Assembly (NCBI GenBank): GCA_964016885.1
Contig: OZ024740.1
Location: 126,108,001-126,172,000, forward strand
Direction of reading: 5' to 3'
DNA length: 64,000 nt
DNA from: Eledone cirrhosa
Taxonomy: Eukaryota
The position numbers and the translations under genes are program-made. The notes under the pieces are model-generated. The model was not told where the DNA came from. It worked only from the letters and a program-made list of their open reading frames with translations, and made no database searches. This document shows, in pieces, positions 25,384-31,800 of the stretch. Each line of letters starts with the position of its first letter. The first letter of the stretch is position 1.

Positions 25384-26356
25384 AATATATAAACAACTAT
25401 CTGGTTGTGGAACCAACCAACCAACCAGAAATTTATAAATTTATAAATTCCTAAATTTATAAATTTATTATAATAAATTTAAGTGAACGGAAGTGGTGCG
25501 TGTGTTTCTTATTGGCAACATGACCCTCCCAAAGTATAACAATATCGGTTTCAACACACGATTTCAGATAAAGAATCTTGCTAAACAAATTCAGAAACGA
25601 AATATATATATATATATATATATATATATATATATATATATATATATATATATATATATATATATATATATATATATATATATATATAAATATGTGAGGT
25701 ATATGATTTTTAATGCGATGAAATACCCATGATCGTTTGGTAAATCACTGATGAGGACTCATTTTATAACATGTTATCCATGTGCAACCAGCAGTAATCT
25801 TCTCACCCATATTTTTTATATATATATAAGTGTATATATATATGTATATATATAAGTATATATATTTATATGTATATATATATATATGTATATATATATG
25901 TATACATATATATATATATATATATATATATATATATATATATATATATATATATATAAATAGATAGATAGATAGACAAATGTGTGGTGCATATATATAT
26001 GTATATATACATATATTCAAATGTATATATATATATATATATATATATATATATATATATATATATATATATATATATATATATATATATATATATATGT
26101 ATATATATATGTAAGTATGCATGTATACGTACATACATATATGTATACAGACGTACAGTAGCATGCACATATATATATATATATATATATACATATATAC
26201 ATACATATGCATACAGGTACACATACATATATGCACGTATCAGTTTAGCGGCGCTAACGTCGCTTTGTTCGTTTGTAAACAAACTGAACAGCCTGAATTT
26301 ATGCCATACGGTGTTAAGGCAACCACGTCACCTTTTTGTTCAACACTGACACATGA

Positions 26357-26399
26357 ACGATGTACTAGTTTCAAGCTTGTTAGCTATCATCAGCACCGT
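26357..26399 (-). ncRNA. Type I hammerhead ribozyme (also at 26825-26867, 27293-27335, 27757-27799, 28225-28267 on minus)
   Basis: ACGGTG-CTGATGA-TAGCTAACAAGCTT-GAAA-CTAG-TA/CATCGT; complete core, stem I, stem II and palindromic ACTAGT stem III. Confidence 0.85.
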
Positions 26400-26473
26400 T
26401 TACCCATCTGCCAGATAGTTGAACGTTCGAAAGTATATACTTTCCTTATGAAAATTAACGGCTGAGCAGCCTA

Positions 26474-26481
26474 ATTTGCAT
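26474..26481 (-). promoter_or_regulatory. Octamer motif ATGCAAAT in each array unit
   Basis: Exact octamer about 75 nt upstream of the hammerhead, conserved in the diverged copy at 21381-21388. Confidence 0.45.
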
Positions 26482-28783
26482 ATTGAGTGAGTTAAATCGG
26501 TCAGGCATACCGAAAACGATAAATTGAAACAAAATGAAAACGAAATTTCATTTCTCACTCTTAGTATGGCACTTACTTAAATGTAAGTATGCATGTATAC
26601 GTACATACATATATGTATACAGACGTACAGTAGCATGCACATATATATATATATATATACATATATACATACATATGCATACAGGTACACATACATATAT
26701 GCACGTATCAGTTTAGCGGCGCTAACGTCGCTTTGTTCGTTTGTAAACAAACTGAACAGCCTGAATTTATGCCATACGGTGTTAAGGCAACCACGTCACC
26801 TTTTTGTTCAACACTGACACATGAACGATGTACTAGTTTCAAGCTTGTTAGCTATCATCAGCACCGTTTACCCATCTGCCAGATAGTTGAACGTTCGAAA
26901 GTATATACTTTCCTTATGAAAATTAACGGCTGAGCAGCCTAATTTGCATATTGAGTGAGTTAAATCGGTCAGGCATACCGAAAACGATAAATTGAAACAA
27001 AATGAAAACGAAATTTCATTTCTCACTCTTAGTATGGCACTTACTTAAATGTAAGTATGCATGTATACGTACATACATATATGTATACAGACGTACAGTA
27101 GCATGCACATATATATATATATATATACATATATACATACATATGCATACAGGTACACATACATATATGCACGTATCAGTTTAGCGGCGCTAATGTCGCT
27201 TTGTTCGTTTGTAAACAAACTGAACAGCCTGAATTTATGCCATACGGTGTTAAGGCAACCACGTCACCTTTTTGTTCAACACTGACACAGGAACGATGTA
27301 CTAGTTTCAAGCTTGTTAGCTATCATCAGCACCGTTTACCCATCTGCCAGATAGTTGAACGTTCGAAAGTATATACTTTCCTTATGAAAATTAACGGCTG
27401 AGCAGCCTAATTTGCATATTGAGTGAGTTAAATCGGTCAGGCATACCGAAAACGATAAATTGAAACAAAATGAAAACGAAATTTCATTTCTCACTCTTAG
27501 TATGGCACTTACTTAAATGTAAGTATGCATGTATACGTACATACATATATGTATACAGACGTACAGTAGCATGCACATATATATATATATACATATATAC
27601 ATACATATGCATACAGGTACACATACATATATGCACGTATCAGTTTAGCGGCGCTAACGTCGCTTTGTTCGTTTGTAAACAAACTGAACAGCCTGAATTT
27701 ATGCCATACGGTGTTAAGGCAACCACGTCACCTTTTTGTTCAACACTGACACAGGAACGATGTACTAGTTTCAAGCTTGTTAGCTATCATCAGCACCGTT
27801 TACCCATCTGCCAGATAGTTGAACGTTCGAAAGTATATACTTTCCTTATGAAAATTAACGGCTGAGCAGCCTAATTTGCATATTGAGTGAGTTAAATCGG
27901 TCAGGCATACCGAAAACGATAAATTGAAACAAAATGAAAACGAAATTTCATTTCTCACTCTTAGTATGGCACTTACTTAAATGTAAGTATGCATGTATAC
28001 GTACATACATATATGTATACAGACGTACAGTAGCATGCACATATATATATATATATATACATATATACATACATATGCATACAGGTACACATACATATAT
28101 GCACGTATCAGTTTAGCGGCGCTAACGTCGCTTTGTTCGTTTGTAAACAAACTGAACAGCCTGAATTTATGCCATACGGTGTTAAGGCAACCACGTCACC
28201 TTTTTGTTCAACACTGACACAGGAACGATGTACTAGTTTCAAGCTTGTTAGCTATCATCAGCACCGTTTACCCATCTGCCAGATAGTTGAACGTTCGAAA
28301 GTATATACTTTCCTTATGAAAATTAACGGCTGAGCAGCCTAATTTGCATATTGAGTGAGTTAAATCGGTCAGGCATACCGAAAACGATAAATTGAAACAA
28401 AATGAAAACGAAATTTCATTTCTCACTCTTAGTTATGCACTTACTTAAATGTAAGTATGCATGTATACGTACATACATATATGTATACAGACGTACAGTA
28501 GCATACATATGTATGTATATATGTATATATATATATATATATGTGCATGCTACTGTACGTCTGTATACATATATGTATGTACGTATACATGCATACTTAC
28601 ATTTAAGTAAGTGCCATACTAAGAGTGAGAAATGAAATTTCGTTTTCATTTTGTTTCAATTTATCGTTTTCGGTATGCCTGACCGATTTAACTCACTCAA
28701 TATGCAAATTAGGCTGCTCAGCCGTTAATTTTCATAAGGAAAGTATATACTTTCGAACGTTCAACTATCTGGCAGATGGGTAA

Positions 28784-28826
28784 ACGGTGCTGATGATAGC
28801 TAACAAGCTTGAAACTAGTACATCGT
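28784..28826 (+). ncRNA. Type I hammerhead ribozyme in inverted arm (also 29252-29294)
   Basis: ACGGTGCTGATGATAGCTAACAAGCTTGAAACTAGTACATCGT read directly. Confidence 0.85.
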
Positions 28827-31800
28827 TCCTGTGTCAGTGTTGAACAAAAAGGTGACGTGGTTGCCTTAACACCGTATGGCATAAATTCAGGCTGTTCAGT
28901 TTGTTTACAAACGAACAAAGCGACGTTAGCGCCGCTAAACTGATACGTGCATATATGTATGTGTACCTGTATGCATATGTATGTATATATGTATATATAT
29001 ATATATATATGTGCATGCTACTGTACGTCTGTATACATATATGTATGTACGTATACATGCATACTTACATTTAAGTAAGTGCCATACTAAGAGTGAGAAA
29101 TGAAATTTCGTTTTCATTTTGTTTCAATTTATCGTTTTCGGTATGCCTGACCGATTTAACTCACTCAATATGCAAATTAGGCTGCTCAGCCGTTAATTTT
29201 CATAAGGAAAGTATATACTTTCGAACGTTCAACTATCTGGCAGATGGGTAAACGGTGCTGATGATAGCTAACAAGCTTGAAACTAGTACATCGTTCCTGT
29301 GTCAGTGTTGAACAAAAAGGTGACGTGGTTGCCTTAACACCGTATGGCATAAATTCAGGCTGTTCAGTTTGTTTACAAACGAACAAAGCGACGTTAGCGC
29401 CGCTAAACTGATACGTGCATATATGTATGTGTACCTGTATGCATATGTATGTATATATGTATATATATATATATATATGTGCATGCTACTGTACGTCTGT
29501 ATACATATATGTATGTACGTATACATGCATACTTACATTTAAGTAAGTGCCATACTAAGAGTGAGAAATGAAATTTCGTTTTCATTTTGTTTCAATATAT
29601 ATATATGTATATATATATATATATATATATATATATATATATATATATATATATATATATATATATATATATATATATATATATATATATATATATATAT
29701 ATATATATATATATATATATATATATATATATTTATTTATATATATATACATACAAACACTTACTCGTACGCTAGCACACACAAACTTGAACATAATTAA
29801 ACATATGCCTTCAAGTTATAGATAATCAGACTACCTGAATCTAAACAACCAGCTTGCCTATCCTTCACCTCCTACTCACACTCATCTATCTTCATTCCTG
29901 TAGCTGTGTGGCTCTACCCGCTTATATATATATATATATATATATATATATATATATATATATATTATATAAACCCATCCTTAGAAAACACTAACACAGG
30001 CACACACATACACGCACATACATGTGGAAACACTACGCTTATATAGACATACTTCGATAGATAATCACGAGATCATGTGCGTACGAATATATAGAGACGC
30101 ATACACATACATATAAAATACGCCTACGTAGTCACGCCCATACAGACACACACATGCTCATATGTATGTATGTATATATGTATGTATGTTTGCATGCATG
30201 TATATATATACATTTATGTGTGTAGTTATAAACACCCCCTAACGCGCACACGCCTATATACATACACACAAACCCACGCACACACACACACATACACACA
30301 CATGCGCACACACACACACACACACATACACACACACATACACACACACACACATATATATATATATATATATATATATATATATATATATATATATATA
30401 TATATATATATACATATATACATAAGGTGAGTGTGTATGCACGTTTATGAAAGCGAAAGAGAGATAGAGGAGAGTGAAAGCAAGAGGGAAAGAGAGAGGG
30501 AGATAGATAGATAGATAGATAGAGAGAGAGAGAGAGAGAGAGAGAGAGAGAGAGGGAGAGAAAGTCAAGGAAGTGAGATCTAAATCAATCATGTTACTAA
30601 CCCTGAGAAAGGTTTAGCATTTGCTGAGAATGAGTCATAGTTAGAAGGATATATACTGATAGACTATAAAACAGCAGCAGATATATAAACAGAAAAATAG
30701 ACATGGGACTCATATAAACAGAAGAGAAGAAGAGATCGCTGTCGTGGGGTTTGGTGAGGGGTGCTATTGAGATGTCCGAAAGAAAGAAATTAAGTGCGAA
30801 AGAAGGAGCAAAGTTCGTAAAATAGTGCATTTGAAGGTTGCAAACTGATCTGACTCTAAATTGGAGCAATAGAAGCTTTCAAGATAATGGAAGAGCGTAG
30901 AAATTTTCTTTCTCTACCTCATTTTTCATTGTCTTTCTCTCGCAATCTCACTCTCATTCACTCACAACACTCTCTCTCACGTATGCACACACATTTGAGC
31001 CTGTATATATTATATATGTGCGTGTTGGAGTGTATACGCGTGTGTTTGTATGTGTGGTGTATCCGTGACTGTGTAGGCGTGTGTATGTATGTACATATAG
31101 GCAAGCAAATACCTAAACATCTGTGTGTATTTGGTCATACATAATAAAGTAAAATAATATTAAAGCACACAATATATCATATATGAGACATTCTCTATTG
31201 GCGATACATATATGAGACATGTATACATATGTATGTATATATAGAGTGTATATAATTCTGTGAATTACTGGTGGTGGTCCCAAAACGAGCACTCCATGCA
31301 CAGACATTTGCTCCTAACCACAGTTGAGCGCTGGAACGCTGAACGCTGAGTATCATGTAGAAGTTTCTATTCAAATCATCATTTAAAGAAACGAAACTTC
31401 ATCAATCTCCTTAATATATATGTATCTATATTTATAATAAATGGGCACTGGGGTAACCACATACTTAAGGTCTTTGGTAATCTTAAGGTCTGAGTTTCTG
31501 ACTTATTACTCGGCATCTGAAAAAGTGTTCTCTACCAAAACATCGTCAAATTTATTAGGACCAAGTGGATAACTGATTCAAAGGAACCTGAGTTTTTCTC
31601 CATGCAGTATTACGATGATTCGTTCAGAGAGGATTACGTAAAGTTTGCACTTGTCTTTGAAAGAGCCCCTTATTATGATAGCATAATGAGTTCGTCATCT
31701 TGTTCAAACAACTGTAATACTCTTCGTCGAAACTGATCAATTTACTTTTATATATGCATACTTTCTGAAATACACTTACGTAAATATTGTTTGTTTATTA

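What the first reader, a model, noticed from the sequence alone, without database searches (positions are those of the whole stretch)
26110..29596. Young palindromic tandem array of hammerhead-ribozyme monomers: candidate cephalopod retrozyme producing a ~468-nt circular RNA
Seen: seven almost identical non-coding units each contain a complete type I hammerhead core (CTGATGA / GAAA / GTA cleavage triplet). Stem I is ACGGTG:CATCGT, extendable by CTGGCA:TGTCAG and GTTCAAC:GTTGAAC. Stem II is AGCT:AGCT and stem III is a minimal self-complementary ACTAGT. Known: tandem monomers with type I hammerheads define metazoan non-LTR retrozymes (newt satellite 2, schistosome SM-alpha), which self-process to linear or circular monomers; palindromic stem III motifs can cleave as dimers. 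Inference: this is a non-autonomous ribozyme retroelement copied from a multimeric or circular RNA, on the long side for the class and possibly an undescribed family.
Basis: partly seen in the sequence, partly recalled or inferred. Interest (0 to 1): 0.9.

Follow-up and report, generated by a model that had tools for sequence, protein, structure and literature searches.

The report
Ribozyme repeat pasted by Penelope machinery
This is one of thousands of genomic copies of a protein-free, roughly 470-base repeat that carries a hammerhead self-cutting-RNA motif and sits in TA microsatellites, often as two back-to-back arrays ending at two fixed points; it is likely a retrozyme (a known kind of parasite) copied by a Penelope-type retrotransposon enzyme, probably from a small RNA circle that has not been detected yet.

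Summary
In detail: 5.2 plus 2.3 units of 468 bp, back to back, with seven type I hammerhead cores. It is not a local oddity. The core has 10,672 exact genomic copies, and an older sister subfamily has 10,622. Insertions follow the Penelope-like element (PLE) pattern. Of 50 two-armed insertions, 41 have one 'tail' end and one 'short' end, about 58 nt apart in the unit; none has two alike, and 9 could not be classified. Ends run into (TA)n. None of 127 copies starts at the ribozyme cut, so the template is a circle or an uncut multimer, not a cut linear monomer. Intact, young Hydra-type PLEs with the same pattern share the genome but share no sequence with the unit. Cleavage, circular RNA and the cephalopod label are untested. 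Verdict: a new family of a known kind (animal non-LTR retrozyme). The scan noted the same footprint earlier in another family of this genome and in other genomes.

The parts
26110..29596 (.). whole two-armed insertion, arms diverging (ribozyme-sense 3' ends face outward)
26110..28505 (-). left arm, about 5.2 units, ends at the 'short' site (unit position 250-253, counted from the cut)
28506..29596 (+). right arm, about 2.3 units, ends at the 'tail' site (unit position about 308-312)
28465..28586 (.). inversion centre inside the unit's TA/CA-rich hairpin; 112 of 122 positions self-complementary
28821..29288 (+). one complete cut-to-cut monomer, 468 nt (predicted circle)
29252..29294 (+). type I hammerhead: stem I, core, stem II with U.U base, palindromic stem III; predicted cut after 29288
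28784..28826 (+). type I hammerhead, predicted cut after 28820
28225..28267 (-). type I hammerhead, predicted cut after 28231
27757..27799 (-). type I hammerhead, predicted cut after 27763
27293..27335 (-). type I hammerhead, predicted cut after 27299
26825..26867 (-). type I hammerhead, predicted cut after 26831
26357..26399 (-). type I hammerhead, predicted cut after 26363
29542..29596 (+). 'tail': sequence between the two inferred reverse-transcription start sites, present at this outer end only
   Evidence: definition from PMC11167929
25817..26109 (.). (TA)n target, left
29597..29753 (.). (TA)n target, right
21003..21821 (.). insertion of the older sister subfamily (about 77% identical), same two-armed tail/short layout; its core has A15.1 changed to G
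34873..35045 (-). truncated tail arm of the sister subfamily

Best explanation
The array is one insertion of a protein-free, hammerhead-bearing repeat with thousands of dispersed copies, likely pasted into (TA)n by a Penelope-like element's endonuclease and reverse transcriptase, which probably copies a ribozyme-cut, re-joined RNA circle round and round from both ends of the cut DNA. Shown: unit, motif, copy number, back-to-back arms, two fixed outer ends (one of each per classified two-armed insertion), TA targets, read-through of the cut site, no ORF. Inferred: (1) tandem copies are transcribed; (2) neighbouring hammerheads pair their palindromic stem III and cut out monomers, which a host ligase circularises, as shown for axolotl and mussel retrozymes; (3) a (TA)n-targeting PLE protein, most likely of the Hydra clade, nicks both strands and starts cDNA internally at unit positions about 312 and about 253; (4) each cDNA runs on for 0.3 to about 10 units; (5) the two cDNAs are joined back to back at scattered points. 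My odds: PLE mobilisation about 0.9; circular template about 0.55-0.6 given that.
For: One tail plus one short end in 41 of 50 two-armed insertions, none with two alike, 9 unclassified; all 50 diverge. A TA run follows 72 of 75 short and 80 of 83 tail outer ends. This is the PLE 'tail' signature, shown in vitro to be two internal RT start sites with both strands cut and extended (PMC11167929). An autonomous Hydra-type PLE in this genome shows the same pattern (8 of 11 end pairs tail/short, 1 tail/tail, 2 unclassified); it has the CxCX5C, CxxC and CxH motifs, 15,677 end-motif copies, and uninterrupted ORFs of about 800 aa in 2 of 6 long copies fetched. None of 127 exact and none of 229 relaxed matches to the sequence after the cut begin within 3 nt of it. 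40 of 160 arms cross the cut two to eight times. Multi-unit insertions are subfamily-pure, and 6 private variants are fixed across both arms in 6 of 43 informative insertions. The core differs between subfamilies only at N7 and loop II while the units are about 77-81% identical. Stem I pair 3 switches among G.U, U.G, A-U and C-G and stays paired in 233 of 243 segments. Axolotl HHR_Amex2 has a similar two-pair stem III and a U.U base of stem II; it cleaves better as a dimer and gives circles (PMC7229834).
Against: No cleavage or RNA evidence was obtained. An uncut multimer explains the read-through equally well: in the one PLE tested in vitro, unprocessed RNA was the main substrate and cleavage was dispensable, and 8 of 9 Xenopus retrozyme dimers did not cleave in vitro. 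The private-variant signal shrank from 11 variants in 8 insertions (57 insertions, 315-nt block) to 6 in 6 (126 insertions, 243-nt block), so part of it is unsampled subfamilies. 17 variants in 6 insertions are shared by only some units, including one in 2 of the 7 units of this array; a single circle does not explain that without later duplication or conversion. The unit shares no sequence with any PLE end I held, so the helper is assigned by footprint only. The stem I covariation rests on about three historical changes; its segments were not de-duplicated for overlapping loci and were collected with core patterns.
Confidence: 0.55

Rival explanations
1. Same PLE machinery, but the template is an uncut read-through transcript of a tandem array; the hammerhead cuts slowly or not at all and no circle is involved.
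For: Read-through of the cut site fits equally. Precedents of dispensable or absent cleavage. Weak stem II base and an inactive monomer MFE. Variants shared by only some units of an array.
Against: Copying of linear multimers cannot lengthen an array or fix new variants in all units, yet arrays reach about 13 units and many subfamily-pure types exist. The core is conserved across subfamilies, which implies that cleavage matters at some step.
Confidence: 0.3
2. Short PLE-type insertions were expanded into tandem arrays afterwards by unequal crossing-over, the satellite model discussed by Li et al. 2026.
For: Adjacent units share private variants in 6 insertions, including this one. The model is proposed in bioRxiv 10.64898/2026.07.22.740005.
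Against: Both inverted arms can be multi-unit in a very young insertion (this array). Private variants are fixed across both arms in 6 insertions. Array lengths fall in the same 0.3-5.5 kb range as insertions of the autonomous PLE.
Confidence: 0.09
3. The unit is only the pseudo-LTR of an autonomous PLE, and these are truncated by-products.
For: Ends and geometry are those of a PLE. PLE-like coding pieces lie in 29 of 54 and 12 of 70 loci. Only 125 clusters of several thousand were examined, all on one contig.
Against: No recurring unit-to-ORF junction in 125 clusters. Sequence after the tail returns to the hammerhead of the next unit, not to an ORF. No homology with full-length PLE copies.
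Confidence: 0.05
4. Assembly artefact (fold-back or collapsed repeat).
For: Near-perfect palindrome between long TA runs; no long reads could be laid here.
Against: The ends are asymmetric by the same 58 or so bases in 41 insertions of two subfamilies, and units carry their own differences.
Confidence: 0.01

Closest known systems
Animal non-LTR retrozymes (Cervera and de la Pena 2020, PMC7229834, results and discussion read; Li, Clavereau and Pollet 2026, bioRxiv 10.64898/2026.07.22.740005, parts 1-3 of 5 read)
   Same: Non-coding tandem units of a few hundred bases, each with a type I hammerhead, in thousands of copies. Ribozyme layout close to axolotl HHR_Amex2 (two-pair stem III, U.U at the base of stem II). 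PLEs proposed as helpers.
   Different: In the parts I read, neither paper describes two-armed insertions, fixed tail/short ends or (TA)n targeting for retrozymes; the PLE link there rests on co-occurrence and on sequence kinship with pLTRs. Here the link is the insertion footprint, and no pLTR kinship was found. Cleavage and circles were shown for coral, mussel and axolotl, not here.
Endonuclease-bearing Penelope-like elements, especially the Hydra clade (Craig et al. 2021, PMC8557442, passages and the Hydra section; Frangieh et al. 2024, PMC11167929, main text; PMC3846280, passages)
   Same: Partial tandem plus inverted 5'-truncated copy, tail at one end only, hammerhead upstream of the end, insertion into (TA)n.
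   Different: No ORF. The tail is about 58 nt, against 30-40 in print and about 95 in the local Hydra-type PLE. Whole-unit tandems of up to about 10 per arm.
Non-autonomous Chlamys PLE derivatives such as MRC1 (passage in PMC8557442)
   Same: Non-autonomous, multicopy head-to-tail insertions made by PLE machinery.
   Different: Green alga; generally similar to autonomous families at the 3' end; most Chlamys lack canonical hammerheads.

Membership tests
Type I hammerhead ribozyme | Core CUGANGA / GAA / A15.1-U16.1 / NUH triplet in type I order | tested here: met
   All seven copies; only N7 and loop II differ between subfamilies
Type I hammerhead ribozyme | Three helices around the core | tested here: met
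   Stem I 6 bp with a covarying pair (233 of 243), stem II 4 bp over a U.U mismatch, stem III 2 bp palindromic; stem III self-duplex -4.8 kcal/mol
Type I hammerhead ribozyme | Reaches an Rfam hammerhead gathering score | tested here: not met
   0 hits; HH9 18.5 bits against 52
Type I hammerhead ribozyme | Self-cleavage after the triplet | not testable with these tools
   No raw RNA reads available; no genomic copy starts at the cut
Animal non-LTR retrozyme | Tandem units of some hundred bases, each with a type I hammerhead (at least two consecutive) | tested here: met
   length range in print 51-972 bp
Animal non-LTR retrozyme | No coding capacity; no LTR layout | tested here: met
   Longest ATG ORF 40 aa sense, 74 aa antisense; no recurring ORF junction. 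PBS and PPT were not scanned for
Animal non-LTR retrozyme | Dispersed, high copy number | tested here: met
   10,672 plus 10,622 cores
Animal non-LTR retrozyme | Unit-length linear and circular RNA in vivo | not testable with these tools
   Needs RNA reads or a northern blot
Animal non-LTR retrozyme | Target-site duplication longer than 4 bp when present | tested here: inconclusive
   Both flanks are (TA)n, so none can be read
PLE-type insertion | Inverted 5'-truncated copy joined head to head | tested here: met
   50 of 125 clusters are two-armed and diverging, 73 one-armed, 2 nested
PLE-type insertion | Tail at one end only (two RT start sites) | tested here: met
   41 of 50, 0 alike, 9 unclassified
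PLE-type insertion | (TA)n target (Hydra, Naiad, Neptune) | tested here: met
   72 of 75 short and 80 of 83 tail ends
Autonomous PLE or its pLTR | RT plus GIY-YIG ORF linked in register to the repeat | tested here: not met
   None in 125 clusters from one contig; no homology with PLE ends held

The most novel reading that the evidence does not exclude
A Hydra-clade PLE protein recognises an unrelated circular ribozyme RNA by shape alone and performs rolling-circle reverse transcription from both ends of one cut, starting at two fixed sites, and sometimes jumps between the circle and its own mRNA within one insertion (direct unit-to-ORF joints in L044, L047, L112/L113). That would be the first mapped life cycle of an animal retrozyme and a natural case of target-primed copying of circular RNA into chromosomes.
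Probability: 0.3. Interest if true: 0.75.

Novelty: new member of a known kind. Interest (0 to 1): 0.45.

Why it matters
Animal retrozymes are known, and PLEs have been proposed as their helpers since 2020, but the mechanism is stated as open in both papers read. This family gives direct genomic footprints: two mapped start sites, a defined target, read-through of the ribozyme site, and an intact candidate helper in the same genome. With the published in vitro PLE assay (PMC11167929) one can test which enzyme copies a retrozyme and whether the template is a circle. Five paper searches listed no paper describing this family or this footprint in retrozymes. Repbase, Dfam, subscription journals and the supplements of the cited papers were not seen, and could hold the family. 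The kind of element is not new, and the scan has met the same footprint before.

Tried and rejected
Rfam: no hit at gathering score; the E-value scan of the whole array was swamped by AT-rich microRNA models, and only its top 150 of 225 rows were shown. A DNA search of the own genome returned nothing because common words are skipped; patterns worked. Expression: no RNA holder listed. Contigs of runs X4 and X5 each held one 470- or 486-nt contig joining round the unit. I rejected this as evidence of a circle: the run type is unknown, a tandem DNA array assembles the same way, and the same runs also hold the most abundant end of a neighbouring PLE at trace depth, as trace genomic DNA would. Run X6 follows X1 on both elements. 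Chimeric joints as proof of the helper: L044 and L047 join the unit to a Hydra-type ORF without a TA spacer and keep the tail/short rule, and L112/L113 join a related PLE. But that PLE is very abundant, joints to LINE-like sequence are also common among 31 non-TA junctions of 59 one-armed insertions (some of them mapping noise), and L081 pairs two tail ends. Later deletions or nested insertions explain them as well, so I give them little weight. L1-type twin priming on one linear RNA: not matched, because the tail arms' 5' joints are scattered over the unit instead of sitting near the second start site (read). The end counts were noisy and were replaced; its 1-kb clustering splits a few insertions. 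Circular fold of the monomer: -153 kcal/mol against -106 +/- 5 for 40 shuffles, but much of it is the TA hairpin, so it is not used as evidence. A genome-wide count of tandem dimers was not obtained. Host taxon: not determined; the protein atlas placed the candidate helper among animal RT/GIY-YIG clusters without a usable taxon. PMC8490949 (passages) added nothing.
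Full report
Observation. The window holds two arrays of a 468-bp unit, 5.2 copies on the minus strand and 2.3 on the plus strand, joined back to back and flanked by (TA)n. Seven complete type I hammerhead cores are present, and the five complete monomers are nearly identical. Rfam does not call the motif, and the monomer's minimum-energy fold is neither the active fold nor better than shuffles. 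The core differs between the young and the older subfamily only at the free position N7 and in loop II, while the units are about 77-81% identical. The third pair of stem I occurs as G.U (145), U.G (50), A-U (33) and C-G (5) among 243 segments (overlapping loci not de-duplicated, about three independent changes). The axolotl ribozyme HHR_Amex2 has a similar layout; it cleaves weakly alone, well as a dimer, and yields circles (PMC7229834).

A dispersed family. The genome is 3.0 Gb. The young core has 10,672 exact copies, the older core 10,622, and the 32 bases after the cut 13,326; reversed controls give 0. I fetched the surroundings of the first listed places on contig C1 and resolved 125 insertion clusters, including three in the window. 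Unit length varies from 419 to 573 with subfamily and with an internal TA tract. Most arms are short: 120 of 160 cross the cut site once and 40 cross it two to eight times. This array is therefore a long and very young member.

Insertion footprint. Counting from the base after the cut, arms end at one of two places: about 250-253 (short) or about 308-312 (tail). Fifty clusters are two-armed, and all 50 diverge. In 41 one end is short and the other is tail; none has two alike; 9 have an unclassified end. A TA run follows 72 of 75 short and 80 of 83 tail ends. This is the layout described for endonuclease-bearing PLEs (PMC8557442; PMC3846280). In the one PLE studied in vitro, the tail is the stretch between two internal reverse-transcription start sites, and both DNA strands are cut and extended (PMC11167929). 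The short site lies in the loop of a small hairpin and the tail site follows another. The 5' joints of the arms are scattered.

Template. A cut linear monomer would begin at the ribozyme site, and copies should pile up there. None does: 0 of 127 exact matches start within 3 nt of the cut and 123 continue through the whole core; these include all 100 places listed for the first 52 Mb of C1. A relaxed count gives 0 of 229. The template is thus a circle or an uncut multimer. For a circle: arrays are subfamily-pure, and some private variants are fixed in all units of both arms, 11 in 8 insertions at first and 6 in 6 of 43 with the larger sample and a shorter block. Against: that signal shrinks with sampling; 17 variants in 6 insertions are shared by only some units, one of them in the two outermost units here; and published work shows cleavage can be dispensable or absent. 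I put the circle at a little better than even.

Helper. The unit has no ORF and is not linked in register to one in any cluster examined. The window and its neighbours are rich in PLEs. One family has the Hydra-clade motifs, 15,677 end-motif copies, the same tail/short pattern in 8 of 11 end pairs, and uninterrupted ORFs of about 800 aa in 2 of 6 long copies; five of the six are 93-99% identical to a reference copy over their main match. Hydra elements are reported to insert into (TA)n. It shares no detectable sequence with the unit. Two insertions join the unit directly to its ORF, but later rearrangement explains these as well. The helper clade is therefore likely, and the family is not assigned.

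Expression. Nothing could be shown either way; see Tried and rejected.

Comparison. The element meets every testable criterion for an animal non-LTR retrozyme except an unreadable target duplication; the two criteria that need RNA are untested. Cervera and de la Pena proposed PLEs as helpers and circles as templates. Li et al. 2026 added co-occurrence and pLTR kinship in vertebrates, three insects and a coral, and left the mechanism open. What this family adds is a footprint that maps the start sites and excludes the cut linear monomer as template. My five searches did not list a paper with it. The minimal-hammerhead background is from part 1 of PMC4209133. Lunse et al. 2017 was seen only as a cited title. 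Newt satellite 2 and SM-alpha are known to me from these papers' text and from recall. Supplements were not read.

Earlier notes of the scan, consulted after my reading was formed, report the same footprint for a 310-nt family in this genome and for 470-590 nt families in other genomes; a search by sequence found none for this unit. They are unchecked and are not counted as support.

Verdict. A real, very young insertion of a large, probably undescribed retrozyme family; new member of a known kind; interest 0.45, because it makes the open question of retrozyme mobilisation testable but is not a new kind of system.

Noticed in passing
window 10158-10660: A second hammerhead repeat (245-bp period, cores on both strands), also with a U.U pair at the base of stem II.
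   Followed up: no
window 23288-25514: 5'-truncated PLE with RT and GIY-YIG-type coding sequence, a hammerhead at its 3' end (25345, +) and an inverted copy at its 5' end (23609, -).
   Followed up: partly
window 35068-37814, 16113-19931, 61159-64000: Hydra-type PLE copies with inverted ends in (TA)n; the 35-kb family has near-identical copies in several fetched loci.
   Followed up: partly
window 34410-34870: Palindromic non-coding element with a hammerhead on each arm and one long and one short end; its ribozyme flanks resemble those of the candidate helper PLE.
   Followed up: partly
L044:3738-5200, L047:700-4915, L112/L113: Unit joined without a TA spacer to Hydra-type coding sequence; either a template switch during insertion or a later deletion.
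   Followed up: partly
L038:4357, L061:4520, L081:3638, L128:1328, L108:1317: One-armed insertions whose 5' end is joined directly to the inverted end of a different TA-targeting repeat family.
   Followed up: partly
window 26354 and 26822: The two outermost units of the left arm share one substitution (unit position 9) absent from the other five and from all other loci held; suggests local duplication or conversion.
   Followed up: partly
L061:4902-6833: The Hydra-type ORF has an asparagine-rich stretch between RT and endonuclease, recalling the N-rich inserts in rotifer PLEs.
   Followed up: no
window 1-8500, 45800-46700, 48800-53700: Several LINE copies with endonuclease and RT frames, 70-86% identical to each other; the L1/Tx1-type label is from recall.
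   Followed up: no
window 33072-33447: 375-bp near-perfect palindrome between TA runs, no canonical hammerhead core found.
   Followed up: no
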